The notes beneath the pieces were generated by a model. The model saw only the letters and a list, made by a program, of their open reading frames with translations. It was not told where the DNA came from and ran no database searches. The translations under genes were made by a program, and so were the position numbers. A stretch of DNA of 64,000 nt, taken from a virus. Its lineage: Duplodnaviria > Caudoviricetes. Shown here in pieces: positions 3,472-61,229 of the stretch. The stretch spans positions 2,026-66,025 of the IMG/VR virus record IMGVR_UViG_3300037827_000187; one strand, given 5' to 3'. Numbering within the stretch: the stretch's first letter is position 1; every line of letters starts with the position of its first letter.

Positions 3472-6400
3472 CTATTTGCCAAGTTCTTCGAGTTTGCGTT
3501 CGGCTTCTTCTTGCTGTTCGGGGAGGAGCTTGGGGAGGGTGTCCAATTTAAGAAGGGGAAAGAGCTGAGCTTTCTCCTCGGGCTTAGCATACTTGGATAG
3601 GATATCTAGTTGATTGGTCAGGGGGATGGATTTGAATTCCCGCTGGAACGGAGACAGATGATCCTCAGACTCGTCTATCAGCTTCATTGCGTCATCACCA
3701 GTTATACGGCCTGTGGCCAAGGCTCGGCCTAGACCCTCACCATCGAACTTCCCGTGGTCCATTTGATACCGAAGCTGATACATGGTTTGGCGGCGGGTGA
3801 ACTCGGCAGTGGTTCGAGGGCCAATAGCCCACTGGCGCTTGGCGTAGTCGAAGGTTTCTTGCTCGGCCTTGGTCTGGCCTACCCACTTGGGAGCAGGGAA
3901 GAAGCCCGCTTCGCCCGCAGCAAAGTGCTCGGCTGTACTGCGCCAGTCACCAGCAGACTTGTCATACTGTTGTAAGCCACTTTGAAAAGGCAGAGGAATG
4001 TTGTGCAGGGTGAGATACTTGCCTAGCTCGGCAGCCTGCTGAACAGGGGTATCGCCCTTGTGCCGGATCTCCGTGCCATAGTAATCTTGGTTGGTCCACA
4101 TCTCATATGTTTGTTGCATCAGAGGATGGATCTTATTGAGGAAGCTGTCTCCCTGACGTTCGCTTTGGTTCAAGGAACGGATGGCAGAGAAGGCTTCCTT
4201 GTGGTAACCTGGCAGGGAGATCTTGGCTCCCTCAGGACCTGGGTAGAAATAATCTTCCAGCTTCTGTGGAGCCGCACCAGTCATGCCATAGTGCATGATA
4301 GCGCCCATGGTCCCGACAACCATCGGGAGGGCCATGACATAAGCGGCTTTGGCGGAGAGATCTGTGGGCTTGCCGCCCAGGGCCTGGGCTGCCTTACCTA
4401 CGCCGAACTTGCCAACATCCAAGGTACCACCGAAGAGTTCGGACAAAGTTCCCCAGTTCCATCCGACGGATCGCACCGTTAATTGGGCCAGGTCCCTGGC
4501 GGTCTTATTCCAGAACCGATTGTCATATCTAAGCAGACCAAAACGATTGTCTACAGAATCCCAGGTTCGCCCAACCTCAGTGCGGATCTGATCGGGGCTG
4601 GCCCCCTTAGACAGGAGACTATCATACTGCTCCATGGCCATTTTGGTGAAGGCGCCCATCTTTAGATTGGGAACATAGTTCTGCATCAACCACTTAGAGG
4701 AAAACTCCGCCAGGGCAGGTAACCCCGTTTTTAGCGAGGATACTACGTCTCCGTCCTTGAATGCCTTCTTGAAGGCAGCCGTCCGCTGACCTTCCTGGAG
4801 GAGGTTCTGAGAACCTATCCCACCACCCACATCCTCCATTAGATCAGCATACTTGCCCAGGAAGGGATAGGTGCCAGGGACGGTCCACTCTTCTCGCATC
4901 ATGTTGCCGAGGCGGTAGGTGTCGATCGAGGAGGGGACGATGCTCAAGCCCTTCATCATGGAACCAAAGCCCTTCATGGGCTTGCCATAGTTGAACATCT
5001 GCTGGAGGCCCAGGGCGACATCACTAGTGGCCGCACCAGCAACGGAGGTAAAGGTAAAGTGGAAACCACTGAAGCCAAGCTGGATCATGTTCTGGGTGTC
5101 GGCCAGGTTTCGGAGGGGATCATATATTGCGTTGCCCCTCAGCCCGGGTTTCATCCACCGATTAAAGATCTTGGCGATGTCTGGGTGAGCCCAGTAGTTG
5201 CCGTATTCCACCAAACCCCCCTGGCCGGGGACTCGTGGCTTGAATATAGAGTCATCAATCATCCGCCAGCCCTGGGGACGGGTTGCCCCGACCTTGGCCC
5301 ACTGGACTAGACTCTTGTCTTTGAACTCCTCGAAGGCCTTGTGGGCGCTGATGTACTTGACGATCTGGTTCATCACCAGCATCTGCATCTTGACAGGGTT
5401 GTTGGTAACGGGCTCTGCCCCGTGGCCGATGCTCTCATCAATCCAATCATTAACACGCGACCTGGTGAAGGCCTTGCCTCCTTCAAAGGGTTGCTTAGAA
5501 AGGATCATGCTTTGAGCCGTCAACTGACCATTCTTCCCTTTAAACAATCGTCCAAAGTAGTTCTCGATACCCGGGCCAAACTTATCAGGATTGATTTGCT
5601 GAAGGGTAGGCCAGAGGATGTTCTGGTAGATGTCCTGAAAGCTATCAGCCACGGCCTGATCCTGGGCATTGAGGAAAGTTGACCCAGGCTTGCGTTCGGC
5701 GGCGTTGTTAAACCTAATCAAGTCTTGGATCGAGTCACCCTCATGGCTCATCATAACTTCGTGGAACTTGGTGTAGAGCTGATCTATGGAGCGGGCGCGC
5801 TCACCGAACACACTACGCATGATGTTCCGGCCTTGTTGCCCCTCGGGAGTTATGGATCCCCCTAGGGTCTGAAGGATATTGCCTACTATGTGGTTCGTCC
5901 CAGAGACCGCTCCTGCGGTCTTGTTCCACATGTTGAAGGCGCCCTTTTCTCGTTCGATCTTATTGCGGGCCATGGTCTCGGCGGTTCCCTTGGCCATTCC
6001 CTTCTTCATGTAGTTCTGGACTAGGTCATTGTAGAGGGTGGAATCTGCTAGGCCTTGTTCTGGTGTAGGCTGGGCAGCTTTTACATCCTCGCTCAAAACG
6101 GGGTTCGCTGCTCGGTCCTCGATCCTACGTCCAAGGTTCTGTCCAGGCGAGGCTAGACCTCGACGTTCCATGTCCTTGTCGATGGTTTCCATGGCCGCAG
6201 GATCGGTGACCCGCATGGCGCCCTCTAGCTTCTGTAAGGGAGGAAGGGGTTCTATCGGGGATCTCTCGGCGGGAGGAACGGGTTCTCCTGGTCCCTTGGT
6301 TGCTTCGGCGGCTTGAACGGGTTCCGGACTCTCGCGGGGCGTGGGCTTCTCGGCGGCTCCCCGAACTTCGGGCTGCGCGGATGTTTGATTGTCCAAGCGT

Positions 6401-8100
6401 TCGACACGGAACTTGCCTGCTTTCTCGGTGATCTTAAAGTTGCCCTTGCCATACAACTTGACTCCGGCTTGGGTAGCGGAGCGGGCATAGTTGAAGGCTT
6501 TCTCTTCGATGGGGACCTCGGGTTTGGGGGGCTTGACTCCCTCCTTGGAGAGGACCATGTATCTACTTATTGTAGAGGGATCTATCTGCTTGCCCTTGGC
6601 AATGGCAGCTGCCACCTCGGATGTCTTGGTGTGTTCGTCCATCACGGAGAGCATCCTGTCAGTAAGGTACTTCGCTCCCCACTGGCGAACGATCATCTCC
6701 TTGGCATCCTTGGGTTTGGCGCCTTCGATGAACTGTTGGATGTCTTGGGGAAGGGTGTCTACGAATCCTTTGGGGATGGTGGGCAACTCATGCCCGGCGA
6801 TCTTGGTGAACTCTGCTCGGCTGATCTGATCGGCCCCTGGCTTTAGTCCAGAGAAGGATAGTTTACCTTGGATGAGATCATTGGTTACGTTACGAGCGCG
6901 AGCAAGCTGGGCACCCTTCTCATCAAGGTTAGTGCGCAGGGATGCTAGGGTGGCGTCTACATCCTCACGGGTGGCGTACTGCCCCCATGTGGTAAGGGCA
7001 CGCAGCCCCTCGGTTTTAACCTGGTCTATGCGGACAGGATCCGCTCCGGCTTCCTTTAACTTGGCTACATCATTCATGGCGATTTGATACCGCTGCATGT
7101 GACGATTGGCCATGGTTGGAGCATCTGGATAAGGCGAACGATCCACCATGGTTTGACCGGTTCCGGTCAGGGTGAGCTTGCGCTTGAGATAGTCGGGCTT
7201 CTCGCCTGCGGCAAACTCTGGGGATTCAACGGTCTTGGTAGATTCTAAACGAGCAACCTTACGACGCAGGGCCTCGTAGTCTGCACTACCGGGAGTGGGT
7301 GAAGAGGGGGCTGCCTCCACAGGTGCGGGCTTAGGAGCCTCAATCCTGGCCTCAGGTGTCTTGGGTGTTTCAATCTTAGCAGCCTCTCTAATAGGGGCAG
7401 CGTGGGTTTCCCCCTTGACAGATTCAATCTTGGTAGGCTCAACACGAGCCTCTCCTCGAAGCCAACTACCAAGGCCGCTAGTTAATCCACCGGCAGCAGA
7501 GCCAGCTACTCCCCAGAATTCCTGAGCCTCAGGTGATGCACCAGCAGCCTTGGCCGCACGGCTTCCTGCCTCACCGCCCACTATGGAACCGCCTAGACCA
7601 GTCGCCATGGCCACTGGGGCTTCAAGTCCTCCGGCGATCATCAAGGGAGTCGCGGCTTCAAACAAGCCACTAGCCGCATGCGCAGTGCCTTCAGCCAATG
7701 GCCGAATGGGATGCATGGGATTGAGTTCGCGGGCCGAGGCAACTTCTCCAACACCTTGCGCAATCTTGGAATAACCACCAAGACCCAAGGCATCTCCCGC
7801 GCCTACACCTCGGGAAATTCCATAAGGGGTTTGTGTATTCACCAAGGGAAGCTTGCTTGCGGTATCAGCAATGCGACTCCAAGTAGAAGGCTCATAGGAA
7901 TCGCTTGTGGCTCCGGGGATCGGACCCAGGGGCCTTTGCAAAGCAGGGAGCTGCGGACTCGCAGGCCCCGAAGGCAATTGAAGCTCCGGCCCCCGCTTGG
8001 GAGGATAGAGCTTCTGCATTGCTTGCGTGATCTGATCCCGACTCATCGTGTCCGGGAAGTCGATGAAACCTTCCGGACCTTGGATACGTTGATTGGGCAT
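3472..8100 (-). CDS. Large internal virion / DNA ejection protein (1542 aa)
   Basis: Size, helical Ala/Gly-rich composition, last gene of the podoviral morphogenesis block. Confidence 0.65.
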   Translation of the reverse strand: MPNQRIQGPEGFIDFPDTMSRDQITQAMQKLYPPKRGPELQLPSGPASPQLPALQRPLGPIPGATSDSYEPSTWSRIADTASKLPLVNTQTPYGISRGVGAGDALGLGGYSKIAQGVGEVASARELNPMHPIRPLAEGTAHAASGLFEAATPLMIAGGLEAPVAMATGLGGSIVGGEAGSRAAKAAGASPEAQEFWGVAGSAAGGLTSGLGSWLRGEARVEPTKIESVKGETHAAPIREAAKIETPKTPEARIEAPKPAPVEAAPSSPTPGSADYEALRRKVARLESTKTVESPEFAAGEKPDYLKRKLTLTGTGQTMVDRSPYPDAPTMANRHMQRYQIAMNDVAKLKEAGADPVRIDQVKTEGLRALTTWGQYATREDVDATLASLRTNLDEKGAQLARARNVTNDLIQGKLSFSGLKPGADQISRAEFTKIAGHELPTIPKGFVDTLPQDIQQFIEGAKPKDAKEMIVRQWGAKYLTDRMLSVMDEHTKTSEVAAAIAKGKQIDPSTISRYMVLSKEGVKPPKPEVPIEEKAFNYARSATQAGVKLYGKGNFKITEKAGKFRVERLDNQTSAQPEVRGAAEKPTPRESPEPVQAAEATKGPGEPVPPAERSPIEPLPPLQKLEGAMRVTDPAAMETIDKDMERRGLASPGQNLGRRIEDRAANPVLSEDVKAAQPTPEQGLADSTLYNDLVQNYMKKGMAKGTAETMARNKIEREKGAFNMWNKTAGAVSGTNHIVGNILQTLGGSITPEGQQGRNIMRSVFGERARSIDQLYTKFHEVMMSHEGDSIQDLIRFNNAAERKPGSTFLNAQDQAVADSFQDIYQNILWPTLQQINPDKFGPGIENYFGRLFKGKNGQLTAQSMILSKQPFEGGKAFTRSRVNDWIDESIGHGAEPVTNNPVKMQMLVMNQIVKYISAHKAFEEFKDKSLVQWAKVGATRPQGWRMIDDSIFKPRVPGQGGLVEYGNYWAHPDIAKIFNRWMKPGLRGNAIYDPLRNLADTQNMIQLGFSGFHFTFTSVAGAATSDVALGLQQMFNYGKPMKGFGSMMKGLSIVPSSIDTYRLGNMMREEWTVPGTYPFLGKYADLMEDVGGGIGSQNLLQEGQRTAAFKKAFKDGDVVSSLKTGLPALAEFSSKWLMQNYVPNLKMGAFTKMAMEQYDSLLSKGASPDQIRTEVGRTWDSVDNRFGLLRYDNRFWNKTARDLAQLTVRSVGWNWGTLSELFGGTLDVGKFGVGKAAQALGGKPTDLSAKAAYVMALPMVVGTMGAIMHYGMTGAAPQKLEDYFYPGPEGAKISLPGYHKEAFSAIRSLNQSERQGDSFLNKIHPLMQQTYEMWTNQDYYGTEIRHKGDTPVQQAAELGKYLTLHNIPLPFQSGLQQYDKSAGDWRSTAEHFAAGEAGFFPAPKWVGQTKAEQETFDYAKRQWAIGPRTTAEFTRRQTMYQLRYQMDHGKFDGEGLGRALATGRITGDDAMKLIDESEDHLSPFQREFKSIPLTNQLDILSKYAKPEEKAQLFPLLKLDTLPKLLPEQQEEAERKLEELGK
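4721..4740 (+). repeat. Dispersed motif copy 1 (orientation A)
   Basis: AACCCCGTTTTTAGCGAGGA, inside a CDS. Confidence 0.8.
6086..6105 (-). repeat. Dispersed motif copy 2 (orientation B)
   Basis: TCCTCGCTCAAAACGGGGTT, inside a CDS. Confidence 0.8.
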
Positions 8101-13614: not shown

Positions 13615-13640
13615 ATCTAACCCCGTTTTGGGGCGAGGAG
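13615..13640 (+). repeat. Dispersed motif copy 3 (A)
   Basis: ATCTAACCCCGTTTTGGGGCGAGGAG, nearly fills the intergenic gap. Confidence 0.85.
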
Positions 13641-15446: not shown

Positions 15447-15469
15447 TTCCTCGCCAAAAACGGGGTCTA
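15447..15469 (-). repeat. Dispersed motif copy 4 (B)
   Basis: TTCCTCGCCAAAAACGGGGTCTA; its GAGGA is also the phosphatase RBS. Confidence 0.85.
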
Positions 15470-18874: not shown

Positions 18875-18901
18875 GATCTAACCCCGTTTTGAAGCGAGGA
18901 G
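18875..18901 (+). repeat. Dispersed motif copy 5 (A)
   Basis: GATCTAACCCCGTTTTGAAGCGAGGAG. Confidence 0.85.
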
Positions 18902-36164: not shown

Positions 36165-36189
36165 GATCTAACCCCGTTTTGTGCCAGGA
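36165..36189 (+). repeat. Dispersed motif copy 6 (A, variant)
   Basis: GATCTAACCCCGTTTTGTGCCAGGA. Confidence 0.75.
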
Positions 36190-38306: not shown

Positions 38307-38652
38307 GATCGCTATCTAGGCTCCATTGATCAGCCTGGCGAACTCGAATCGGGGCCGTGGGATCATAACTATCACCGTAGGCATCGATGTCAACTTCGTA
38401 ACATTTGGTTCCTTCTCCAGATGTATCCCCCTCGCAAAAAACGGGGTTGTATGGAGGCGTGAGAAACCCACTCGGATTAAGATATCCAACCTTAAACATA
38501 GGAGGGGCCGGAGACATTCCAGAGCGGTTTTCACCTTCCTCGGAATGAATTGAGCCCACTTCCTGGGAACGTCGGTCGGCTGCGGTGCTGGAATCAGTCC
38601 TCGATTGATTTGAGGACCGATCCCCGGCTTGAAGGGGATGGGGATCGCTCAT
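38287..38652 (-). CDS. Small acidic disordered protein
   Basis: ATGA coupling with the upstream gene. Confidence 0.5.
   Translation of the reverse strand: MSDPHPLQAGDRSSNQSRTDSSTAADRRSQEVGSIHSEEGENRSGMSPAPPMFKVGYLNPSGFLTPPYNPVFCEGDTSGEGTKCYEVDIDAYGDSYDPTAPIRVRQADQWSLDSDHDGHLN
38429..38448 (-). repeat. Dispersed motif copy 7 (B)
   Basis: CCCTCGCAAAAAACGGGGTT, inside a CDS. Confidence 0.75.
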
Positions 38653-41187: not shown

Positions 41188-41209
41188 GGACCCCGTTTTT
41201 TGCGAGGAG
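41188..41209 (+). repeat. Dispersed motif copy 8 (A)
   Basis: GGACCCCGTTTTTTGCGAGGAG. Confidence 0.85.
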
Positions 41210-44342: not shown

Positions 44343-44396
44343 AGTATGGGACTCTACACTAGGCTCTAGGGGACACTATCCCACTGGAGCAGGACA

Positions 44397-44663
44397 ATGA
44401 TGCACACTCAAGCGCAGTTAGATGCAATGAGCATGGACGAGCTTAAGGCCGCGATCAGCGCAATACAGACTGAGAAGGCTGTGGCCAAGGCTGGCAAGCT
44501 CACATTGACACGCAGTGACAAGAGCGGCGGGCTGATGTTATTGGGGCTTCGCAAGTTCCCGGTGACATTCCACGATGAGGAATGGGAAATGATCTTGAAC
44601 AAGGCCAACGAGATTCGGATGTTTATCAAGGCCAACCCAGAACCAGCCCGAAAGATAGGATGA
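44397..44663 (+). CDS. Early hypothetical protein
   Basis: GGAG RBS; SDKSGGLMLLGLRKFPVTFH.EEW. Confidence 0.7.
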   Translation: MMHTQAQLDAMSMDELKAAISAIQTEKAVAKAGKLTLTRSDKSGGLMLLGLRKFPVTFHDEEWEMILNKANEIRMFIKANPEPARKIG

Positions 44664-44737
44664 GTAAGGCGACGCTAGTGTCGCCTAGAGCCTAGCAGCC
44701 AATATCCAAGGGGATATCATCCCACTGGAGCACCAAA

Positions 44738-45085
44738 ATGAACACACTACAACAGCACCATGCAGACTGGCAAGCTGGCCTCATATCCGATCAGGATATG
44801 GCCATGTATATCGAACTCGACAGGCTCGAGCACCTGGCTCACATAGAGTTTGAGTGTCGAACAGCAGTATGCCGGTCAAATGGTAACCTTGAGGGCGGCA
44901 AATACCAGATCAGCACGCCCAAGGAACTAGCCGAGTTCATGAACAACATGGCAGACAAGGCTGGCCAATTACTACGGGACCGAGAGCTTGGTGGGGTATG
45001 GCACCAAGTGGACAGTAACAACAAACTCTGGTTCATAGCAATCGGGCCACATGGCAAGATTCTCGATGAAACACAGCTTAATTAG
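44738..45085 (+). CDS. Early hypothetical protein
   Basis: Same CCCACTGGAGCA-N4-AATG initiation cassette. Confidence 0.7.
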   Translation: MNTLQQHHADWQAGLISDQDMAMYIELDRLEHLAHIEFECRTAVCRSNGNLEGGKYQISTPKELAEFMNNMADKAGQLLRDRELGGVWHQVDSNNKLWFIAIGPHGKILDETQLN

Positions 45086-45138
45086 GGCTGAGGCGATAGA
45101 TGATATCGCCTTGGATATTGGCAGAAAGGGGAACCACA

Positions 45139-45306: not shown

Positions 45307-45329
45307 TTCCTCGCGCAAAACGGGGTTAG
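45307..45329 (-). repeat. Dispersed motif copy 9 (B)
   Basis: TTCCTCGCGCAAAACGGGGTTAG. Confidence 0.85.
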
Positions 45330-47225: not shown

Positions 47226-47247
47226 GGACCCCATTTTTAGCGAGGAG
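47226..47247 (+). repeat. Dispersed motif copy 10 (A)
   Basis: GGACCCCATTTTTAGCGAGGAG; doubles as RBS. Confidence 0.75.
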
Positions 47248-48600: not shown

Positions 48601-48625
48601 TTCCTCGCTCAAAACGGGGTTAGAT
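48601..48625 (-). repeat. Dispersed motif copy 11 (B)
   Basis: TTCCTCGCTCAAAACGGGGTTAGAT. Confidence 0.85.
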
Positions 48626-50917: not shown

Positions 50918-51097
50918 ATGAAATACCCAAAAAGGATTATCCGCCGAGTTATCGTTTTGATGGAGGATGGCCTGGATATCCTCGATCGAGCGACCGACAA
51001 TAACTTTTTAACCAAAAAGCAGATCCTGGAGTTGGAAAAGGGATACGACTGTCTCTTGGAGGCTCAGATTCTGCTCAAGGAGGGCAGGAAGAAATGA
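50918..51097 (+). CDS. 59-aa hypothetical protein
   Basis: GGAGGAG RBS; ATGA overlap with the next gene. Confidence 0.55.
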   Translation: MKYPKRIIRRVIVLMEDGLDILDRATDNNFLTKKQILELEKGYDCLLEAQILLKEGRKK

Positions 51098-52362: not shown

Positions 52363-52382
52363 TCTGGTTCCCAGGAGGGGAC

Positions 52383-53138: not shown

Positions 53139-53271
53139 CATTGTATGGTTGGGTGTCTTTGCCAGAATGGGAAGTTTGGATTATGAAAGAGGGTAAGCCG
53201 GTTAGAACACTTTCTTATGATCCAAATCTAGCCAAGGTGTGGGAGTTGCTTGTGGAAGTGGTGGATGCCCA

Positions 53272-53799
53272 GTGAAGAACTTCGGAGAGTTTCGGAAGAT
53301 GGCGAATGATTATCTACCAGAAAAGTTGTTTTCACCAAAGCCATTTCCTGGCCCGTATCCTACGAGGTGGGTTGTTGGATTGAATCATCGAATCCCAAGG
53401 ACTGATAGAGATGAGACGTTCAGTTACTTTGGCAGGCCTTGCAAGCAGGTTGTCCAACACATACAACCCTTTTTTGCATATGATGCTTATCTTATCTGGA
53501 CAGAGTTTGACCAGAATGGCGTGATTCAAAAGATTGACTGCGCGCTTCCCTTGATGGATTGTTATCCGGTGGCCCGGTATTGGCAGCCAGAGGGAATTCA
53601 ATACTATTATCCCTTCAGTCAAGGACTGACCTTGGCAGAGATATGGCTTCGCGAAGTAGTATCCACGCGGATGATTGTTAAACCACGGGCCTATACCTGT
53701 TATATGCCGTTTGCGCACAAAGAGGGGGTACAGACGGCATATAATCTAGTGAAAGGACACGAAGAATGGCTTCAAAAGGCAAACATTCAATACAAGTGA
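53272..53799 (+). CDS. Hypothetical protein
   Basis: GTGA overlap start. Confidence 0.55.
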   Translation: MKNFGEFRKMANDYLPEKLFSPKPFPGPYPTRWVVGLNHRIPRTDRDETFSYFGRPCKQVVQHIQPFFAYDAYLIWTEFDQNGVIQKIDCALPLMDCYPVARYWQPEGIQYYYPFSQGLTLAEIWLREVVSTRMIVKPRAYTCYMPFAHKEGVQTAYNLVKGHEEWLQKANIQYK

Positions 53800-54008
53800 T
53801 TGACTTCGGGAAGCTGAAGCCTCCTGTGAGCAAGGCTGCGCGTTATAAAGCAAAGTGCGTCAATTGTGGCCGGAATCACTATGAGAGCGTGCCATTTTAT
53901 GGCTTTGTGTGCAAGCCTTGTGGATTCGAGAATGATGGGATCTATTCTGTGGCCGTCCCAACTCAAGCAAGGCCAGGATATCCGATCAAACCGGCAGATG
54001 AATTCTAA
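53796..54008 (+). CDS. Small zinc-ribbon protein
   Basis: CVNC, CKPC. Confidence 0.5.
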   Translation: MIDFGKLKPPVSKAARYKAKCVNCGRNHYESVPFYGFVCKPCGFENDGIYSVAVPTQARPGYPIKPADEF

Positions 54009-55541: not shown

Positions 55542-55574
55542 GAGAAAGTCCTGGGATGCCAGGAAGGAGCTGAC

Positions 55575-56573
55575 ATGTGTGGAATATGCGGCATCAGGCG
55601 CTTCGGCCCTGAGCCTATTACTCCGGATCAGATTAATATCATGCTGATCCAGAATGAAAAACGTGGTATGCAAGCCACCGGAGTTGCCCTCCAACAGGCG
55701 GATGGGTCAATTCAAGTTTGGAAGAAGGATGAGCCTGCCTGGAGGTTTGTTACACTGCCGGGATTCAAGGAGTTCATTGCGGCGAACTTGCATCCTGAGA
55801 CCCTTACATTCATTGGGCATACGAGGGCCGCAACGAAAGGACTGCCGTGTTTCGACAAAAACAACCATCCGATGTGGCACGGCGAGACAGCGATGGTCCA
55901 CAACGGAGTGATTCACAACGACGACGACCTGTTCAAGGAGTTCAAGCTGGAGCGGAGTGCCGAGACCGACTCCGACATCATCCGCGCGATCTTGGATTGG
56001 AAGGGGTTCACGCGAGAGGGTCTCACTACCTTGAACCGAATCCGTGGGAGTGCAGCGTTTGCCGCAATTTCCACAAAGTTCCCTGGAAAACTCGTTCTAG
56101 CGAGGAGCGGTTCTCCCCTTCAGTTAGCTGCGACTAAGAATCAGCTCCTCTGGAGTAGTGAACGGGAGCCAATCTTCCACGCCCTGCGGGACTATGAAAA
56201 GAAGTTCGGCGTCTGGATGCGGCGAAACCTCGTGGAATGTGATATGATGCCGATGAACAATGATTCGGCATATATATTCACAGATCGGCCCGAAGCCGAG
56301 GACGGTGTGGAATTTTATCCCGAAGATCCCTCCACCGGAAACTGGATGGAATGGCACCAAGAGTTCAAGAGTGCCATGACCTATACCACCCCGACCTACC
56401 GTCCCCACGAGACCTACAATGTCACAAGGATCAAGAACTACGGGGAGACGAAGATTGATATTATTCTTTGCCCCAATACAAAGTGCCGGGCTTGGCTGCC
56501 GGTTACTCCGGCCCAATTACAGAACCTGAAGACCGTCCGATGCGGGCAGTGCAAAGGGAAGTTGGCTGCATAG
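55575..56573 (+). CDS. Class II (Ntn) glutamine amidotransferase with C-terminal zinc ribbon
   Basis: MCGICG, RG..ATG, GHTRAAT, NNHP, HNGVI, ETDSD. Confidence 0.92.
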   Translation: MCGICGIRRFGPEPITPDQINIMLIQNEKRGMQATGVALQQADGSIQVWKKDEPAWRFVTLPGFKEFIAANLHPETLTFIGHTRAATKGLPCFDKNNHPMWHGETAMVHNGVIHNDDDLFKEFKLERSAETDSDIIRAILDWKGFTREGLTTLNRIRGSAAFAAISTKFPGKLVLARSGSPLQLAATKNQLLWSSEREPIFHALRDYEKKFGVWMRRNLVECDMMPMNNDSAYIFTDRPEAEDGVEFYPEDPSTGNWMEWHQEFKSAMTYTTPTYRPHETYNVTRIKNYGETKIDIILCPNTKCRAWLPVTPAQLQNLKTVRCGQCKGKLAA

Positions 56574-56687
56574 ATCCTAGGCGCCGATCACAGGAGGGCC
56601 TATGGACTGGTTCCAGTTGAGAAACACGATCATAGCACTCGTGGTGTTGGGGGCGATAATAGAAGTGAGACGAAGACGGAGGATGAT

Positions 56688-57428
56688 GTGATTGAGCTAA
56701 GGGCAAACAAGGGGCCAACAGGTCGTCTGTTGAGGCAGTTGTTGCAGCAAAAGGGGCTGCTGGCGCGGCCAGGCCAAGCCCGAGGGGTAGTCAACTATGG
56801 ACACGGGGGCGGAAGCGAGCTTCCCACACTAAATGCACGCGCGGGGACATTCAACAAATATGTCGAACTTCAAAGGCTTCATGAAAAAGGGGTCCAGACG
56901 GTGCCATTTGCCCGTACTCGGGCGGAGCTTAATGGCGTGGCGCTTGCTCGTCGTATTCACCATACACGGGGAACGGATATTGTCGTTGTGCGGGATGGCC
57001 AAGCGCATCGTGGTGGTGATTTTTACACTTCGTTGATTCCCAAGAGGAGGGAGTTCAGGGTGTGGGGCTTCCGGCGAAAGCCAATTGCCTGCTACGAGAA
57101 GGTCTTGACTTATGCACGGAAGCTTGGACTAAGAGGGAGAAGCCGTGAAATTTGGAACTGGCGAAACGGATACGCGTATAATTTTCTCCATCCTGATGGA
57201 GTACCCGCCGCCCTCAAGGCCTTGGGTGCTCAAGCCGTCGACGCATTGGGCCTGGACTTTGGGGCGGTTGACATTATCGAAGGAGAAGGGGGACGTTTAT
57301 ACGTTCTGGAAGTTAATACTGCGCCTGGGGTCGAAGGGCCACGATGGGGACTCACCAGCCTTGTGAACCACATAGCACTGTGGGCCGCAGGCGGATACAA
57401 ACGGCGCAACGGAGAGGCTAAAGCATGA
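56688..57428 (+). CDS. ATP-grasp ligase (RimK-like)
   Basis: NK...L, REFRV, A.DALGLDFGAVDII, YVLEVNTAPG. Confidence 0.9.
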   Translation: MIELRANKGPTGRLLRQLLQQKGLLARPGQARGVVNYGHGGGSELPTLNARAGTFNKYVELQRLHEKGVQTVPFARTRAELNGVALARRIHHTRGTDIVVVRDGQAHRGGDFYTSLIPKRREFRVWGFRRKPIACYEKVLTYARKLGLRGRSREIWNWRNGYAYNFLHPDGVPAALKALGAQAVDALGLDFGAVDIIEGEGGRLYVLEVNTAPGVEGPRWGLTSLVNHIALWAAGGYKRRNGEAKA

Positions 57429-57955
57429 GTACCAAGGTGCGAGTGATTCTTCAACATGATGGGCATTATGTTGAGGGTCAAAGGGCGATACGGCAGCTCC
57501 GGAAGTGCGATGGTTTGTGGGGGAAGAAGATTGATCCCACGCTCAAGGGTCCGGCACGAATTATAGCCCTTTTTGAAAACCTTCGAGGGGGTTATCATAG
57601 AGATGAACTGTGGATCCTAAGAGAACCCCGCAAAATGCCTCGGAAGAAAAGCAAATATATTGGATTTGCTCGGTATGCGGGGATTGGCAAAAAGATCTAT
57701 TCCAAGAAAGACACACTTAAAGCGGAGGCCCAAATAAGAGCCGTCGCAAGGAGAATCCATGGTAGACGTGTCCAACCTGCCCGTGCAAGGCAACTCGCGG
57801 GTCGTCTCAACTTCCCCCCCAGGGGAAGAGTGCCGTTGCAATTTGATGACCTTGCCCCACTTCAAGCACCAATGCCAGCCGCGCCAGGACAAATGCGGTG
57901 GCACGTTGTCCAAGACGTGCCCAGGGACTTCATTCGTCAAAGAGACGAAGGATAG
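57425..57955 (+). CDS. Basic hypothetical protein
   Basis: ATGA coupling; Arg/Lys-rich. Confidence 0.55.
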   Translation: MSTKVRVILQHDGHYVEGQRAIRQLRKCDGLWGKKIDPTLKGPARIIALFENLRGGYHRDELWILREPRKMPRKKSKYIGFARYAGIGKKIYSKKDTLKAEAQIRAVARRIHGRRVQPARARQLAGRLNFPPRGRVPLQFDDLAPLQAPMPAAPGQMRWHVVQDVPRDFIRQRDEG

Positions 57956-58131
57956 AGGTACAGGATGGTTCTGCGGGCATCATCTTCGATATATATTCCC
58001 GATGTGGGTTCTTATTGATGGAGTCCCGGTGGCCACCTGCGATGATTGTTTTCTCGACGACCTTTGGAACCAGAATATGGTTCTGGGAGACACGGAGGAT
58101 ATCCCTAGTGTGGAAATGGATGACATCATTA

Positions 58132-58578
58132 GTGAAGCGCCCCTTGATACCTCAGGAGTTTGATTTCACTCGTGCAGCTTATCAGTATTATTGCACTTTC
58201 CTGCACGGGACGATTCACTCTGCGGTGTTCCAGGGGCAGTGTAATCCTGTGCCCCGACAAGGGAGCACGATCTTCGTCTCTCTAAACAATGGCCGCGTGG
58301 GACGATATTATCTGTACTATGTGAATCCCCTGCGAGATTATAGCTATGGCTTTCGGGCTATAGGAGATTTCCAAGGCTACAAGGAGGACTATGCCGATCG
58401 AGTGGGAGACTTTAAAAAGAAAGCTGATGCTCCCTTTGGGCAAGGTGCGCCATTACCAAGAGGAGGCGCGACGACGCATGATATTGACGCTTGGGGGCTA
58501 CGATCCGGTGACCGTCCGGTTTCTGTGTTACAGGGCAGGCCTGCTCTCCGAACAGACTCTAACTGGCTCATTCTCTAA
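58132..58578 (+). CDS. Hypothetical protein
   Basis: Start uncertain; overlaps the next ORF. Confidence 0.35.
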   Translation: MKRPLIPQEFDFTRAAYQYYCTFLHGTIHSAVFQGQCNPVPRQGSTIFVSLNNGRVGRYYLYYVNPLRDYSYGFRAIGDFQGYKEDYADRVGDFKKKADAPFGQGAPLPRGGATTHDIDAWGLRSGDRPVSVLQGRPALRTDSNWLIL

Positions 58579-58813
58579 AGAGATGAAGCCCCTGGTGAGG
58601 GGCTCGATTAAAGCAGTAAGGGTGGCGATTGCCAAACTCAATGACCCAAGCTCAGTCACTAAACGAAGCATACAAGAGATGGAAGAACGCATCAAATGGC
58701 GAAGCCGAGAACCTGTTGTCATTGCTTGTGAAATCGTTGGAGAAGCTCGCCCTGTCCATTTGTTGGCGCAAGATTCCGGATCTGCGGAGCGAGTTCCCGT
58801 GGGTGGTCAATGA
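58391..58813 (+). CDS. Hypothetical protein
   Basis: AAGGAGG RBS; 3' end overlaps the sigma gene. Confidence 0.5.
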   Translation: MPIEWETLKRKLMLPLGKVRHYQEEARRRMILTLGGYDPVTVRFLCYRAGLLSEQTLTGSFSKEMKPLVRGSIKAVRVAIAKLNDPSSVTKRSIQEMEERIKWRSREPVVIACEIVGEARPVHLLAQDSGSAERVPVGGQ

Positions 58814-59168
58814 AGCAACGTGGAGGGCGATCAGTGGTGAAGGCAAATTCGGAGGCAAGAGTCAGTTTTCGGTCTGGTTCTATCGGATCGTGGTCAATGA
58901 GTGTAACCGACTTCTTAAGCGCACACAGAAACTTCGGGAAACAACTGTCGGGTTGGACGACATACCCTTATTTGGAAAATCTAAGACTGATCGCGGTGAC
59001 GCATTACAGGGAGTCTTACAAGGAATCGGTTGGCCGGATCAAACCCTCATTGCGTTAAAGGCGGAGGGCTGGAGCACCCGTGAAATCGCCGGGATGCTGG
59101 ATACAAGCGAAGCTGCTGTTAAGATGCGCTGGAGTCGGTTGAAGGGGAGATTAAGAGATGCCGGATAG
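58641..59168 (+). CDS. ECF-type sigma-70 family sigma factor
   Basis: Region 2 F.G.SQFSVWFYRIVVNEC; region 4 EGWSTREIAGMLDTSEAAVKMRWSR. Confidence 0.88.
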   Translation: MTQAQSLNEAYKRWKNASNGEAENLLSLLVKSLEKLALSICWRKIPDLRSEFPWVVNEATWRAISGEGKFGGKSQFSVWFYRIVVNECNRLLKRTQKLRETTVGLDDIPLFGKSKTDRGDALQGVLQGIGWPDQTLIALKAEGWSTREIAGMLDTSEAAVKMRWSRLKGRLRDAG

Positions 59169-60171
59169 CTTTTTTAATCCGTTTGATGGGCTGGCCGCGC
59201 AACAAGGGCAACAACAGGCTGCTCAACAACAACAAGTCTTTTATTCATCGCCGATACAGCAGGCGATGAGCGAGTTATTTAGCCACGGGAGTTTTGTCTA
59301 CAAACCGACGCCCTTGACTCCTGAGCAAGAAGTTCAACGAGCCCGGCGCAACGAGGCCTTCTATCGAATGGCCCGGCTCGAAAGAGAGCGTGAAGTAGAA
59401 CAAGAAAAGATCGAAGAAGCGGAGGAAGGTGTGGTTCTCAATACATTTTTAATTGGATGTGATCCGGAGTTTGTTGCACTCGATGGAGCTAATCATGTCA
59501 TTAATGTAGGGCATACGTTGCAGCACATCGGAGAAATAGGCTGGGATCACAGCGGAAATGTCATCGAAGTGAGGCCCAAGCCTGCCAAGGGGGCATTTGC
59601 CCTGGTAAGAAGGATGCAGAAGCTACTAAAGGATCCCCGACTGGAAGGCCTTGGATGCGCCAAGCTCCGAGCGGGAGCTTATGTACCGCCCTATTTACTT
59701 GGGGGGCATATTCACATTGGGGGTGTGTGTTCACGAGATCAAGAACATCTCAATCGCATTACCGCCATGGATGCCGTCACCCGGCTTCTCGAACACCTTG
59801 ACATTCTACCAACAAAAGAGTGTATCGAACGCCGCAAGAAAGGCGCGGACGCTGGCTACGGGAAGTTTGGCGCGGTCCGGTATAAGGCCGATGGCCACTT
59901 TGAATATCGAACCATGGCTAGCTGGCTGCATGATCCGCGCGTGGCCTATATATGCTTGACTGCGGCCAAGCTTGCGGCGGTGGCGCCAATCGAAACGAGA
60001 ACTGCCCTCGAAAAGGCTACAAGCTTCGCGGCTTTGCAAACATGGGCCGAGAATTACAAGAAGGATGACAACGTCAAGAGGATGCTGCGTTTGTTTGAAA
60101 AGGGCCATCGGAGCTTGGTTAAAGATCCCGATGTGGACTTTCGAGGACGATGGGAGACCTTAGGACTATGA
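59158..60171 (+). CDS. phiEco32-like COOH-NH2 ligase type 2, paralogue 3
   Basis: IGCDPEF, GWD...EVRP.P, LGGHIHIG, YG..G.VR...FEYRTMASWL; DFRGRW shared with paralogue 2. Confidence 0.85.
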   Translation: MPDSFFNPFDGLAAQQGQQQAAQQQQVFYSSPIQQAMSELFSHGSFVYKPTPLTPEQEVQRARRNEAFYRMARLEREREVEQEKIEEAEEGVVLNTFLIGCDPEFVALDGANHVINVGHTLQHIGEIGWDHSGNVIEVRPKPAKGAFALVRRMQKLLKDPRLEGLGCAKLRAGAYVPPYLLGGHIHIGGVCSRDQEHLNRITAMDAVTRLLEHLDILPTKECIERRKKGADAGYGKFGAVRYKADGHFEYRTMASWLHDPRVAYICLTAAKLAAVAPIETRTALEKATSFAALQTWAENYKKDDNVKRMLRLFEKGHRSLVKDPDVDFRGRWETLGL

Positions 60172-60449: not shown

Positions 60450-60739
60450 GCCGACGCAGATTGAGTGCTAACCAGATCCGTAGGCGACACGAAAGAATGT
60501 GTCGATGGAAGGTTAAGTTTGAGAGTGAGGCGCTGGCGCAGATTGCCTTGGCAGATGCTCCCAATTGGAGCACCCCGGAGAGGCTGACTAATCTTGGGCT
60601 TTATATATGCACGGCATGTGGATACATTCACATCGGGCATCAACCTAAATGGACTAAGACTAACGGGCCTGTTGTAAGCGGACCCCGTTTTGAAGCGAGG
60701 AATGAAATACAACCACCTCCTATTCAACCGGTGTCATGA
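60446..60739 (+). CDS. Small zinc-binding protein
   Basis: C..KV.F...Y.C..CG..HIGH. Confidence 0.6.
   Translation: MSRRRLSANQIRRRHERMCRWKVKFESEALAQIALADAPNWSTPERLTNLGLYICTACGYIHIGHQPKWTKTNGPVVSGPRFEARNEIQPPPIQPVS
60680..60702 (+). repeat. Dispersed motif copy 12 (A)
   Basis: GGACCCCGTTTTGAAGCGAGGAA. Confidence 0.85.
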
Positions 60740-60777
60740 CACTGTATGACCTAACCCCTTTAAATACATACATATAT

Positions 60778-60834
60778 AAATGTCTCTCTTTTATCCTCTG
60801 GATCTAGGGTATATTGGGGAGAGCAGAGACATTT
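60778..60834. repeat. AT-rich inverted-repeat element, copy 2
   Basis: AAATGTCTCT ... AGAGACATTT, 10-bp perfect IR. Confidence 0.6.
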
Positions 60835-60936
60835 TTAAACCCCTCATTCAGAAGGACTTACAAAGGAATGTCACGATCCAAGAATTAATCCACGAAGTGT
60901 TACCAAATCCCGCCTACCGAGGTCTAAACATACGAG

Positions 60937-61218
60937 ATGCAAAGTCTCCATATTCGACACGGCCAAGCCGTGACCATTGATTGGCTCGACTCCAAGGCCC
61001 TGGGAGGATGGCAGCGACAGACATTCACCACGCCTGGGACCGTCCGTAGCCTTGGATATGTGGTGGCCACGGATGATGTGGCCATTGCCATAACAACCAG
61101 CATAGAAGAGACAGGGTGCCATTATGATCCTCTTAGTATACCGTGGGGGTGCATTACTCGGATCGATATCATGTCCGAAGATTATTCCAGAGAAGGCCCC
61201 GCAGAGCCCCTCGCCTAA
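60937..61218 (+). CDS. Conserved phage hypothetical protein
   Basis: V.IDWLDS...W...SLGYVV...IPWGCI. Confidence 0.65.
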   Translation: MQSLHIRHGQAVTIDWLDSKALGGWQRQTFTTPGTVRSLGYVVATDDVAIAITTSIEETGCHYDPLSIPWGCITRIDIMSEDYSREGPAEPLA

Positions 61219-61229
61219 AAACGGGGTCC
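61209..61229 (-). repeat. Dispersed motif copy 13 (B)
   Basis: CCTCGCCTAAAAACGGGGTCC. Confidence 0.8.

What the first reader, a model, noticed from the sequence alone, without database searches (positions are those of the whole stretch)
4721..61229. A 20-bp motif occurs 13 times with nearly strictly alternating orientation, forming inverted pairs
Seen: consensus ACCCCG-TTTT-N2/3-GCGAGGA at 4721(A), 6086(B), 13615(A), 15447(B), 18875(A), 36165(A), 38429(B), 41188(A), 45307(B), 47226(A), 48601(B), 60680(A), 61209(B). Eleven of 12 neighbour transitions flip orientation (13/4096 under a coin-flip model). This gives six A...B pairs about 1.4, 1.8, 2.3, 4.1, 1.4 and 0.5 kb apart. Orientation ignores transcription direction, which argues against a simple promoter. 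Copies either fill nearly a whole intergenic gap, often straight after a TAA, or are written into coding sequence. I found none between 19 and 36 kb, the only break in alternation. Inference: a genome-wide DNA-level site for looping, programmed nicks, inversion, modification or ejection, bound by an unknown protein.
Basis: partly seen in the sequence, partly recalled or inferred. Interest (0 to 1): 0.82.

Follow-up and report, generated by a model that had tools for sequence, protein, structure and literature searches.

The report
Oriented boundary signal with mirror partners
An uncultured soil phage marks its gene-module boundaries with a conserved two-box DNA word that normally points the way the genes run, and every reversed copy lies close to a forward one, which suggests an undescribed way of punctuating phage gene expression.

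Summary
All 13 copies are real (chance expectation about 0.1). A 14th lies just outside the window, and no further copy has fewer than 3 mismatches.

The word is the core of a roughly 23-bp signal, c-TCCTCGC-N2/3-ARAACGGGGT-YAG. Relatives with 44-52% G+C keep it, and three more distant relatives carry their own variant word ("dialect") with the same layout.

The "alternation" is a short-range rule. Over 8 genomes, 37 of 37 neighbour pairs closer than 3.5 kb are inverted. Of the pairs further apart, 31 are inverted and 22 direct.

Orientation does depend on transcription. Stand-alone copies point with the genes in 17 of 18 clear cases. Reversed copies occur only near a forward copy, usually upstream of it.

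At least two copies were written into homologous coding sequence in place, so selection acts on the nucleic acid.

My best reading (about 0.35) is a forward punctuation signal plus mirror partners that pair with it in the mRNA, closing off 0.1-2.3 kb.

The main rival (about 0.25) is DNA sites for the phage's recombinase-derived DNA-binding protein (window 3005-3379). In relatives this gene is a full tyrosine recombinase.

No inversion was seen. Earlier notes of this scan report similar signals in crAss-like and soil phages.

The parts
4722..4740 (+). Copy inside the 1542-aa tail-like gene (3472-8100, minus strand), codon 1121. It is forward ('P') relative to that gene and encodes SSLKTGL.
   Evidence: Homologues have unrelated codons at this place, so the copy was written in place.
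6086..6104 (-). Copy inside the same gene, codon 666, reversed ('Q'). It is the mirror partner of 4722, 1.36 kb away.
   Evidence: The reading frame differs from that of the Q copy at about the same place in G001 and G003.
13620..13639 (+). Forward copy (P) filling the gap between the 409-aa tail gene and the 810-aa gene: TAA-c-word-N10-ATG.
   Evidence: In G007 the same junction holds a reversed copy.
15448..15466 (-). Reversed copy (Q) directly after the stop of the 236-aa lysin-like gene. Its GAGGA lies 2 nt before the ATG of the 206-aa gene. Partner of 13620.
18881..18900 (+). Forward copy (P) after the portal gene and an 87-aa gene, ahead of the head-assembly genes (122 aa, 307 aa, major capsid). 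It faces 15448 across 3.4 kb.
   Evidence: A forward copy sits at this junction in all four dialects.
36171..36189 (+). Forward copy (P, one mismatch) between the 84-aa and 94-aa genes.
   Evidence: The same junction has a lone P in G002 and a Q-gene(s)-P arrangement in G001 and G003.
38429..38447 (-). Reversed copy (Q, one mismatch) inside the 121-aa gene 38287-38652.
   Evidence: It was created in place: NPVFCEG here against EPVHMEG in G002 and no copy in three homologues.
41190..41208 (+). Forward copy (P) directly after the large terminase gene.
   Evidence: The same place and orientation are kept in G001, G002 and G003 and in G021.
45308..45326 (-). Forward copy (P) for the plus-strand block, directly after the five small early genes and 10 nt before the 230-aa gene.
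47228..47246 (+). Reversed copy (Q, one mismatch) 17 nt after a terminator-like hairpin. Its GAGGA serves the gene that starts at 47254.
48602..48620 (-). Forward copy (P) ahead of the 443-aa COOH-NH2 ligase gene. Partner of 47228, 1.37 kb away.
   Evidence: The predicted fold of 47215-48635 contains the Q-P helix.
60682..60701 (+). Reversed copy (Q) opening a 0.5-kb slot of doubtful coding value.
   Evidence: The same slot, between the ligase and the exonuclease, is bracketed by a Q...P pair in G001, G003 and G007, with content not matched by protein BLAST between these genomes except a 34% hit between G001 and G007.
61208..61227 (-). Forward copy (P, one mismatch) closing that slot, ahead of the exonuclease gene 61278-62027.
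   Evidence: The predicted fold of 60665-61245 contains the Q-P helix.
3005..3379 (-). 124-aa stand-alone core-binding (SAM-like) domain of a tyrosine recombinase. It is the candidate DNA-level reader. Binding to the word has not been shown.
   Evidence: Pfam PF13495 E = 1.3e-4, below the cut-off. Protein-atlas neighbours at 0.97 are SAM-like domain families. The gene at the same position is a full 288-289-aa recombinase in G006 and G007 and a 277-aa ORF call (289-aa open frame) in G016.
44359..45129 (+). Two further gene-enclosing inverted repeats with sequences of their own. Arms 44359-44378 / 44676-44695 pair at 19 of 20 positions. Arms 44691-44721 / 45099-45129 pair at 27 of 31. They show that 'closing helices' are a theme of this genome.
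   Evidence: The fold of 44340-45140 forms both helices, z = -6.5.

Best explanation
The 19/20-bp word is the core of an oriented two-box punctuation signal of about 23 bp, c-TCCTCGC-N2/3-ARAACGGGGT-YAG. This phage lineage keeps it at gene and module boundaries.

The working form is the forward copy ('P', boxes in that order along the direction of the genes). It starts 0-3 nt after the stop codon of one gene and ends 10-40 nt before the next start.

A reversed copy ('Q') is an optional mirror partner. It occurs only within about 3.5 kb of a forward copy, mostly upstream of it, and its GAGGA serves as the ribosome-binding site of the gene that follows.

Because Q and P then lie on one transcript, they can pair into a 7 + 10 bp helix with a 2-3-nt internal loop. 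That helix closes off the 0.1-2.3 kb between them and buries that ribosome-binding site. The 'alternating orientation' is the by-product of this arrangement.

I take the signal to act most probably in the mRNA. At the pairs it would give processing by a double-strand-specific RNase and/or masking of translation. At the single-stranded forward copy it would be recognised by a lineage-specific factor not yet identified.

Shown: the copies, their conservation, the dialects, their position, the orientation rules, in-place creation, and helix formation in silico.

Inferred: that the level is RNA, that an RNase cuts, and that a trans-acting reader exists.
For: 1. Orientation follows the genes. Of 92 sites in 8 genomes, stand-alone sites (no neighbour within 3.5 kb) are 17 forward, 1 reversed and 6 unclear. 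Sites with a close neighbour are 34 forward, 29 reversed and 5 unclear. Within a gene block, same-orientation neighbours as listed are forward-forward; I saw no reversed-reversed pair.
2. All 37 of 37 neighbour pairs under 3.5 kb are inverted. Intervals between copies pointing apart (Q then P along the genes) have a median of 1.2 kb; intervals between copies pointing together have 4.8 kb (n = 34 each, p = 1.3e-5).
3. Position: TAA-n-word-N10-40-ATG for P, and GAGGA 0-16 nt before the ATG for Q.
4. Some pairs are plain intergenic hairpins only 80-154 nt apart. Their arms run beyond the word in G006 42295-42500 (-97 kcal/mol) and G016 43470-43635 (-70 kcal/mol).
5. The minimum-energy and centroid folds of 60665-61245 and 47215-48635 contain the Q-P helix.
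6. The same genome has other closing helices with unique sequences, around two early genes and around 50437-50821 (z = -4.05).
7. The variable 2- or 3-nt spacer (45 and 9 of 54 sites) is easy to accept as an internal loop.
8. Contigs of two RNA libraries cover the region and run across copies 45308 and 47228. This fits read-through transcripts but is not proof, because DNA can be present in such libraries.
Against: 1. Helices alone need no shared word. The same sequence at all sites, kept across genomes of 44-52% G+C, demands a sequence-specific reader that I could not name.
2. Partners show no co-variation. Spacers differ within pairs. Flanks of 34 neighbour pairs are no more complementary than those of 238 other inverted combinations (3.3 against 3.8 and 4.0 against 4.4 of 12).
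3. Mismatches within pairs are G-U-compatible on the sense strand in 5 cases, on the antisense strand in 2, and on neither in 2 (my count). This is not decisive.
4. An RNA model gives no reason why two forward copies never lie within 4 kb of each other (0 of 37). A DNA-level constraint such as avoidance of direct repeats may act as well.
5. Copies inside ORFs, above all in the large tail gene of every lineage, are not module starts.
6. There are no RNA ends, no cleavage data and no strand information, because only contigs were available.
Confidence: 0.35

Rival explanations
1. The words are DNA sites read by the phage's small Xer-like tyrosine recombinase. In this genome only its DNA-binding (core-binding) domain survives, as the 124-aa product of 3005-3379.

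On this reading the layout is a phage counterpart of pdif/dif-module or shufflon architecture: asymmetric sites with close neighbours inverted, so that recombination cannot delete the DNA between them. In this branch, which has lost catalysis, the sites would serve as binding sites only, for example as polar roadblocks or insulators.
For: 1. The gene at the same position after the large tail gene is a full recombinase in G006 and G007 (PF00589 E = 3e-21 and 7e-20; HxxR, H and Y present) and in G016 (E = 5e-31). In G000, G001 and G003 the protein stops cleanly just after the shared NPF motif at the domain border. G021 has a 109-aa homologue.
2. Every motif-bearing genome where the region is covered has this gene or its domain (7 of 7). 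The large tail gene next to it carries copies inside its ORF in G000, G001, G003, G006, G007 and G016.
3. No two sites in direct orientation lie within 4 kb (0 of 37). Inversely oriented sites flanking modules are the rule in pdif systems (passages of PMC13141974).
4. Shufflon sfx sites are asymmetric, with a conserved 7-bp core and a 12-bp arm (passages of PMC11852207). Here a 7-bp box stands beside a 10-13-bp box.
5. Copies written into coding sequence fit selection on DNA.
Against: 1. This genome has no tyrosine- or serine-recombinase catalytic domain in six frames.
2. The word has no dyad symmetry and no 6-8-bp central region, and its spacer varies in length.
3. The core-binding domains of genomes sharing the identical word are only 24-35% identical. 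G006, which has another dialect, is 44% identical.
4. Recombinase-like genes also occur in relatives without a detectable word: G009 has a 356-aa one, and G008 and G014 give weak hits.
5. No rearrangement ends at a site in 8 genomes, and no joint appears in contigs.
6. Simulated inversions truncate the tail gene in G000, G003, G007 and G016.
7. The forward bias of stand-alone sites (17 to 1) needs an added assumption of polarity.
Confidence: 0.25
2. The word is a binding site whose function does not depend on orientation, read by some phage protein. Close neighbours are inverted only because direct repeats of about 20 bp a few kb apart would be lost through single-strand annealing by the phage's own exonuclease and Sak4-type annealing protein.
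For: 1. The rule is purely short-range: 37 inverted and 0 direct under 3.5 kb, but 31 and 22 beyond, which is near random.
2. The phage encodes an exonuclease (PHROG 298, E = 6.5e-31) and a Sak4-like annealing protein (PHROG 124).
3. The exonuclease is present in 6 of 6 motif-bearing complete genomes against 1 of 6 without the word (not corrected for about 55 gene families tested).
Against: 1. Stand-alone sites are forward 17 to 1, so orientation is not neutral.
2. Among the inverted neighbour pairs under 3.5 kb, copies pointing apart outnumber copies pointing together by 26 to 11.
3. The number of close pairs (37 of 90) lies nearer to random placement (about 46) than to the half expected if direct pairs were simply removed (about 23; my arithmetic).
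Confidence: 0.12
3. The forward copy is a phage-specific promoter, with a start inside the G run as in T7-type promoters. Reversed copies would be antisense promoters.
For: 1. It is about 23 bp, sharply defined, sits at the head of functional modules and points with the genes.
2. It stands at the junction after the portal gene and before the scaffold and capsid genes in all dialects. From memory, T7 has its strongest late promoters at that junction.
3. Four forward copies in this genome have no ribosome-binding site other than their own G run.
Against: 1. No phage RNA polymerase was found. Pfam and PHROG scans of the large proteins gave no polymerase hit. The PF00940 search found nothing, but its control genomes did not ring either, so that test is weak. 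No DxDGD-type motif is shared among relatives.
2. The large virion proteins are not conserved among genomes that share the word.
3. A third of the copies (30 of 81 clear ones) would fire antisense, for example into the capsid operon.
4. The spacer varies in length.
5. No -35/-10 geometry is present and no flanking conservation is seen.
6. The ECF-like sigma gene does not track the word.
Confidence: 0.08
4. The word is a DNA mark for strand-specific nicks, base modification, replication priming or packaging.
For: 1. Selection acts on the DNA or RNA sequence and not on the protein.
2. The phage carries a large base-modification-like gene set.
3. Earlier notes of this scan describe strand-alternating signals in crAss-like phages and compare them with nick motifs. 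I did not check those notes.
Against: 1. Nothing here bears on it directly. Only contigs could be laid, so ends and nicks are invisible.
2. From memory, the known nick motifs of T5-like, phiKMV-like and LUZ24-like phages lie on one strand only.
3. The tight fit between a stop codon and the next start, and the forward bias, point to gene expression.
Confidence: 0.08
5. The inverted pairs are the terminal inverted repeats of mobile cassettes (MITE- or IS630-like, with TA from a CTAG target), and lone copies are solo ends.
For: 1. The outer flanks read CTA|ACCCC...GGGGT|TAG.
2. Several pairs bracket variable content with no homologue at the same slot in relatives.
Against: 1. The interiors of 11 pairs share no sequence beyond two short matches of 15 and 33 nt.
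2. Other pairs enclose core genes, such as the terminase or tail genes.
3. Copies were written into homologous coding sequence without any length change.
4. No tyrosine- or serine-recombinase catalytic domain was found in this genome, and the family scans of about 40 of its proteins named no transposase. I made no dedicated search for a DDE transposase.
Confidence: 0.04

Closest known systems
Start-associated sequences (SAS) and extended SAS of Cluster K mycobacteriophages (Pope et al. 2011, PMC3203893; passages read)
   Same: Both are asymmetric conserved words, 11-19 copies per phage genome, lying just upstream of the start codons of a subset of genes and overlapping the ribosome-binding site. 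About half of the SAS carry an extra feature made of imperfect 17-bp inverted repeats with a variable spacer.
   Different: SAS are essentially all in one orientation, with a single copy on the other strand. Here a third of the copies are reversed, and they pair with forward copies up to 2-3 kb away. The word, the host group and the phage lineage are unrelated. Copies also lie inside ORFs.
Stoperators of Cluster A mycobacteriophages (L5 repressor sites). This comparison rests mainly on memory; PMC3203893 mentions them only as 13-bp sites with a role in transcription regulation.
   Same: Both are short asymmetric sites dispersed in small intergenic gaps over the whole genome, oriented with transcription, and read by a phage protein.
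   Different: No repressor is known here, and no integrase is present in this genome. Reversed partner copies are frequent, and the word is two boxes with a variable spacer.
dif modules bounded by pdif (XerC/XerD) sites in Acinetobacter plasmids (PMC13141974, passages read; PMC6449649, seen only in a search listing)
   Same: Both have oriented sites that flank gene modules in inverse orientation, so that site orientation alternates along the replicon. Both have variable spacers and a link to Xer-type tyrosine recombinases.
   Different: pdif sites are 28 bp, with two 11-bp arms around a 6-bp spacer, and they recombine detectably. Here there is no dyad symmetry, the spacer is 2-3 nt, this genome has no catalytic domain, no rearrangement is seen, and stand-alone copies follow the direction of the genes.
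R64 shufflon: Rci invertase and asymmetric sfx sites (PMC11852207, passages read)
   Same: Both have asymmetric sites in which only a 7-bp box and one arm are conserved, many inverted copies, some inside a coding region, and a tyrosine recombinase gene next to the target gene in relatives.
   Different: The shufflon is one compact cluster that swaps alternative C-termini. Here the sites span 66 kb, and simulated inversions destroy the ORF.
Long-range processing stems cut by RNase III (rRNA operons; R sites between phage T7 genes). Recalled from memory, not read here.
   Same: Complementary sequences that flank a cistron pair into a duplex of about 20 bp, often with an internal loop, and this sets the ends and translation of the enclosed RNA.
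   Different: Known examples use a different sequence at each place. Here one conserved word is reused throughout and also stands alone.
PeSL (promoter-early stem-loop) cassettes of T4-type phages (Arbiol et al. 2010, PMC2839356; abstract read)
   Same: Both are small conserved regulatory motifs that flank non-essential genes in variable regions and mark places of modular shuffling.
   Different: PeSLs are sigma-70-like promoters plus terminators, and they recombine into mini-circles. No promoter or terminator anatomy is seen here, and the partners are inverted.

Membership tests
pdif / dif modules | A 28-bp site with two 11-bp recombinase arms in imperfect dyad symmetry around a 6-bp spacer | tested here: not met
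   The alignment of 54 sites shows 7 bp + N2/3 + 10 bp + YAG, with no dyad symmetry and no conserved flanks.
pdif / dif modules | Modules flanked by inversely oriented sites, so that orientation alternates | tested here: met
   All 37 of 37 neighbour pairs under 3.5 kb are inverted, and 68 of 90 overall. Beyond 3.5 kb the orientation is near random.
pdif / dif modules | Inversions, deletions or cointegrates with crossover in the sites | tested here: not met
   Gene order is collinear in 8 genomes. No joints appear in the contigs of 4 runs over 35500-55400. Contigs can miss rare forms.
pdif / dif modules | An active Xer-type recombinase | tested here: not met
   This genome has no PF00589 or PF00239 match in six frames and keeps only the 124-aa N-terminal domain. 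Action by a host Xer recombinase cannot be tested here.
Shufflon (Rci / sfx) | An asymmetric site with a conserved 7-bp core directly joined to a conserved 12-bp arm | tested here: inconclusive
   A 7-bp box and a 10-13-bp box are present, but a variable gap of 2 or 3 nt separates them.
Shufflon (Rci / sfx) | Inversion yields alternative open C-terminal coding segments | tested here: not met
   Simulated inversion stops the large ORF 20-30 codons after the site in G000, G003, G007 and G016. Only a 120-bp segment in G006 stays open.
Stoperators (Cluster A mycobacteriophages) | Asymmetric sites dispersed in short intergenic gaps | tested here: met
   Eight of 14 sites lie in gaps although 92% of the record is covered by ORFs.
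Stoperators (Cluster A mycobacteriophages) | One orientation relative to transcription | tested here: inconclusive
   Stand-alone sites are 17 forward to 1 reversed, but over all sites the count is 51 forward, 30 reversed and 11 unclear.
Stoperators (Cluster A mycobacteriophages) | Bound by the phage repressor, with a polar block of elongation | not testable with these tools
   No protein-DNA tool is available, and no repressor has been identified.
Start-associated sequences (Cluster K) | A word immediately upstream of start codons that overlaps the ribosome-binding site | tested here: met
   For Q, GAGGA lies 0-16 nt before the ATG. P ends 10-40 nt before the ATG.
Start-associated sequences (Cluster K) | All copies in the gene-sense orientation | tested here: not met
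   Thirty of 81 clear copies are reversed.
T7-type phage promoters | A phage-encoded single-subunit RNA polymerase | tested here: inconclusive
   PF00940 gave no match, but the control genomes did not ring either. Pfam and PHROG scans of about 40 proteins gave no polymerase hit.
T7-type phage promoters | Fixed-length word, with all copies co-directional with the genes | tested here: not met
   The spacer is 2 or 3 nt, and a third of the copies are reversed.
RNase III long-range processing stems | A duplex of about 20 bp formed by sequences that flank the enclosed RNA | tested here: met
   This holds in silico only. The minimum-energy and centroid folds contain the Q-P helix, and short pairs fold at -58 to -97 kcal/mol.
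RNase III long-range processing stems | Cleavage in the duplex | not testable with these tools
   Only contigs of RNA libraries were available.

The most novel reading that the evidence does not exclude
Mirror-image site pairs bracket and insulate gene modules, making a catalysis-free phage counterpart of dif-module or shufflon architecture. Relatives that still have the whole enzyme would use the same sites for programmed exchange of modules, including domains of the host-range gene.
Probability: 0.2. Interest if true: 0.85.

Novelty: new variant of a known kind. Interest (0 to 1): 0.62.

Why it matters
Dispersed, oriented words in phage genomes have each opened a chapter of phage gene control: T7 promoters, L5 stoperators, and the start-associated sequences of Cluster K phages.

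This one comes with an unusually clean rule set:
- Forward copies sit at module heads.
- Reversed copies occur only as near partners of forward ones.
- No two copies in the same orientation lie within 4 kb.
- Related lineages carry their own dialects of the word.
- New copies are written even into conserved coding sequence.

No system I could find in print shares this combination. Earlier unchecked notes of this scan describe similar signals in crAss-like and other soil phages, so the rule may be widespread.

If the mirror partners act in RNA, this would be a compact way to cut and mask polycistronic messages. If they act in DNA, it would be a new use of a recombinase domain.

Either way the prediction is directly testable with a short oligonucleotide, one 124-aa protein and end-mapping of RNA.

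Tried and rejected
1. Close cultured relatives. Megablast of 20 kb found no match in the phage collection. The capsid protein is at most 33% identical to any deposited phage. No annotation or paper on this lineage could therefore be used.

2. Known RNA families and tRNAs. None was found in the window.

3. Sigma-70-type promoters near the sites. Fourteen were found against 18.8 expected. The only notable terminator is at 47191-47210.

4. A small hairpin inside the word (CCUCG/CGGGG with an A-rich loop, like boxB). It fits three dialects, but the G016 dialect has no complementary boxes. I dropped it.

5. An ECF-sigma promoter reading (GAAC as -35, CGT as -10). No second element is conserved at the right distance, and the sigma gene does not track the word.

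6. A tail-fibre switching shufflon. Simulated inversions break the ORF.

7. A MITE family. The pair interiors are unrelated.

8. Partner-specific pairing. There is no spacer or flank co-variation.

9. The best profile was the exonuclease (6 of 6 against 1 of 6), which is not significant after correction for about 55 families. The 173-aa and 140-aa proteins (38649-39170, 37116-37538) drop in identity in the other dialects but have no family hit.

10. Dialect search in G008, G009, G012, G013, G014 and G015. No dispersed word was found by 16-mer (G008 and G014 only) or 10-mer counting. A weakly conserved word could have been missed.

11. Public runs. Four runs hold the stretch, all as contigs of low depth. 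No joints, no ends and no strand information came out. Parts without cover mean nothing.

12. Literature. The searches were 'bacteriophage genome / intergenic / conserved motif / both orientations / repeats', the pdif terms, and the shufflon terms. None returned a description of this word or of a forward-plus-mirror rule in phages.

13. I did not use structure prediction, complex prediction, the search for homologous proteins or the search of protein representatives.

Full report
WHAT IS THERE

The pattern with a 2-nt spacer matches 9 times in the window, against 0.13 expected. The 3-nt form adds 4 new copies.

The window is bases 2026-66025 of a 66,025-base virus record rated 98% complete. 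A 14th copy lies at record 1628-1646, on the minus strand. A loose scan adds only three candidates with 3-4 mismatches, so the family is sharply bounded.

The DNA polymerase ORF reads across the join of the record's end and start. Homology to the G001 polymerase spans that join, so the record can be treated as a circle.

THE GENOME

No cultured relative exists: one search found no match, and the capsid protein is at most 33% identical to any deposited phage.

By my own greedy ORF calls, the genes form two blocks.
- A minus-strand block (window 3005-43653) holds the small and large terminase, the portal, the capsid, a lysin-like protein, tail genes and several very large proteins with no family hit.
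- A plus-strand block (43772 to the end, continuing at the record's start) holds small early genes, three COOH-NH2 ligases, a glutamine amidotransferase, an ECF-like sigma, an exonuclease, a Sak4-like annealing protein, a family A DNA polymerase and a primase-helicase.

THE WORD AND ITS DIALECTS

Exact-pattern scans of viral contigs, followed by whole-record scans, give these counts:
- G001 (65.9 kb, 44% G+C): 17 copies.
- G003 (68.3 kb, 52% G+C): 15 copies.
- G002 (partial): 8 copies.

The proteins of these genomes are only 40-90% identical to those of the window.

Aligning 54 sites gives c-TCCTCGC-N2 (45 sites) or N3 (9 sites)-ARAACGGGGT-YAG, with no conservation beyond that.

Relatives found through the terminase carry dialects with the same layout:
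- G021: TCAAC in place of ARAAC.
- G007: CCTACC-TA-AAAAGGGGTT, 9 copies.
- G006: CACTACCCC-N-AAAACGGGTC, 7 copies.
- G016, more distant: CATCAGAC-N3-5-AAGCCCCCT-TAG, 14 copies.

No dispersed word was found in G008, G009, G012, G013, G014 or G015.

A word that stays identical while genomes drift from 44 to 52% G+C, and that changes as a whole between lineages, must be read by something sequence-specific.

SELECTION IS ON THE NUCLEIC ACID

Inside the large tail-like gene the word occurs in different reading frames at about the same place in different genomes.

The copy at 38429 lies in a 121-aa gene whose three homologues align throughout but lack the word. The window has AAC CCC GTT TTT TGC GAG GGG where G002 has GAA CCA GTT CAT ATG GAG GGC. 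The change includes loss of a Met that the other three keep.

The copy at 4722 replaces unrelated codons in a variable loop of an otherwise alignable region.

Both copies were therefore written in place, without any length change. This excludes insertion scars.

POSITION

Eight of 14 copies lie in gaps, although 92% of the record is covered by ORFs of 60 aa or more.

I call a copy forward (P) when it reads TCCTCGC...GGGGT along the local genes.
- A forward copy starts 0-3 nt after a stop codon and ends 10-40 nt before the next ATG.
- A reversed copy (Q) offers its GAGGA 0-16 nt before an ATG.

THE ORIENTATION RULES

These counts cover 8 genomes, 92 sites and 90 neighbour pairs.
- 68 pairs flip, and fixed-composition shuffles reach that total in 1 of 20,000 trials. 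The genomes are related, so this is not a true probability.
- Per genome the result is modest: 0.025 for the window's record, 0.022 for G001, 0.053 for G003, and not significant for the rest.
- The signal is entirely short-range. Under 3.5 kb there are 37 inverted and 0 direct pairs. Beyond 3.5 kb there are 31 inverted and 22 direct. The closest direct pair is 4,068 bp apart.
- Intervals between copies that point apart have a median of 1.2 kb. Intervals between copies that point together have a median of 4.8 kb (n = 34 each, p = 1.3e-5).
- Orientation depends on the genes. Stand-alone sites are 17 forward, 1 reversed and 6 unclear. Sites with a close neighbour are 34 forward, 29 reversed and 5 unclear.

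Comparing genomes supports 'forward is kept, reversed is optional'.
- The copy after the terminase gene is forward in five genomes, and the copy after the portal gene is forward in all four dialects.
- Reversed partners come and go. The junction between the homologues of the 84-aa and 94-aa genes has P alone in the window and in G002, Q-gene-P in G001, and Q-two genes-P in G003.
- Between the two conserved forward copies downstream of the terminase, each of four genomes has exactly one reversed copy, at a different place in each.
- The junction between the 409-aa and 810-aa genes holds P here and Q in G007.

WHAT THE PAIRS COULD DO

Q and P on one strand are complementary (7 + 10 bp, with the spacer as an internal loop).
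- Some pairs are plain intergenic hairpins 80-154 nt apart, with arms longer than the word.
- For the window's 0.5-kb and 1.4-kb pairs, both the minimum-energy and the centroid folds contain the closing helix.
- The same genome has other closing helices with sequences of their own. They enclose two early genes (fold z = -6.5) and 50437-50821 (z = -4.05).

Against a pure pairing role:
- Partners share neither spacers nor flanks more than non-partners do.
- Wobble evidence is equivocal (5, 2 and 2; my count).
- A helix needs no shared word.

THE RECOMBINASE LEAD

The 124-aa product of 3005-3379 gives a weak hit to the N-terminal SAM-like domain of phage integrases. Its neighbours in the protein atlas are families of that domain.

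In G006 and G007 the gene at the same position, right after the large tail gene, is a 288-289-aa tyrosine recombinase with the catalytic residues. Its closest solved relatives are archaeal Xer-type enzymes. G016 has one as well.

In the window, G001 and G003 the protein stops just after the shared NPF motif at the domain border. The window's record has no recombinase catalytic domain at all.

This makes a DNA-level reader plausible. It recalls pdif modules and the asymmetric sfx sites of shufflons. Several results count against it:
- The word lacks dyad symmetry and a 6-8-bp core.
- The domain is only 24-35% identical among genomes that share the identical word, yet 44% identical to G006, which has another dialect.
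- Recombinase-like genes also occur in relatives without the word.
- Gene order is collinear in all 8 genomes.
- The contigs of 2 DNA and 2 RNA runs show no joint on 35500-55400.
- Simulated inversions truncate the tail gene.

VERDICT

The alternation is the visible side of a different rule, namely forward signals at module heads plus optional mirror partners nearby. I rank the explanations as follows:
- An RNA-level punctuation and closing-helix mechanism: 0.35.
- DNA sites of the recombinase-derived binding protein: 0.25.
- A binding site whose function does not depend on orientation, shaped by avoidance of direct repeats: 0.12.
- A promoter: 0.08.
- A nick, modification or packaging mark: 0.08.
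- Mobile-cassette ends: 0.04.
- The remainder is unassigned.

None of these is proven.

Earlier notes of this scan, which are AI notes I did not check, report strand-alternating or mirror-paired words in crAss-like phages and in other soil phages. The phenomenon may therefore be wider than this lineage.

Noticed in passing
window 44359-45129: Two early genes (44397-44663 and 44738-45085) are each enclosed by their own long inverted repeat, pairing at 19 of 20 and 27 of 31 positions. The 5' arm holds the ribosome-binding site of the enclosed gene. The predicted fold forms both helices (z = -6.5).
   Followed up: partly
window 50437-50821: A stretch of about 385 nt without a convincing ORF folds into a domain closed by an 18-bp helix (-160 kcal/mol, z = -4.05). 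It has no Rfam match.
   Followed up: partly
window 48663-60171 and 2455-2943: The phage carries three COOH-NH2 ligase homologues, a glutamine amidotransferase, an ECF-like sigma and a dATP/dGTP diphosphohydrolase N-terminal domain. This gene set suggests hypermodified DNA bases.
   Followed up: no
window 63554-64000 joined to record 1-1626 (locus L031): The family A DNA polymerase ORF reads across the join of the record's end and start (a 714-codon open frame). Homology to the G001 polymerase spans the join, so the record is a closed or circularly permuted genome.
   Followed up: yes
G006 (L112:10012-10878 and about 11586-12902) and G007 (L117:15390-16259 and about 16890-18143): Relatives carry two adjacent tyrosine recombinases facing each other, one small (288-289 aa) and one large (438 and 417 aa). 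These relatives may be temperate, while the window's phage keeps only a 124-aa N-terminal domain.
   Followed up: partly
window 61278-62027: The PD-(D/E)XK exonuclease is present in all 6 complete genomes that carry a dispersed word and in 1 of 6 that do not. This is not significant after correction for the number of families compared.
   Followed up: partly
window 3472-8100 and homologues: The large tail-like gene is a mosaic. The C-terminal 2.3 kb is shared by G000, G003, G006 and G007. The N-terminal halves are mostly unrelated, and G001 shares only two short islands, one of which lies about 90 nt after the in-ORF reversed copy.
   Followed up: partly
window 15467-16177: The 236-aa lysin-like gene in the head-tail block has homologues only in G006 and G007 (70% identity). 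It is absent from the closer relatives G001, G002 and G003.
   Followed up: no
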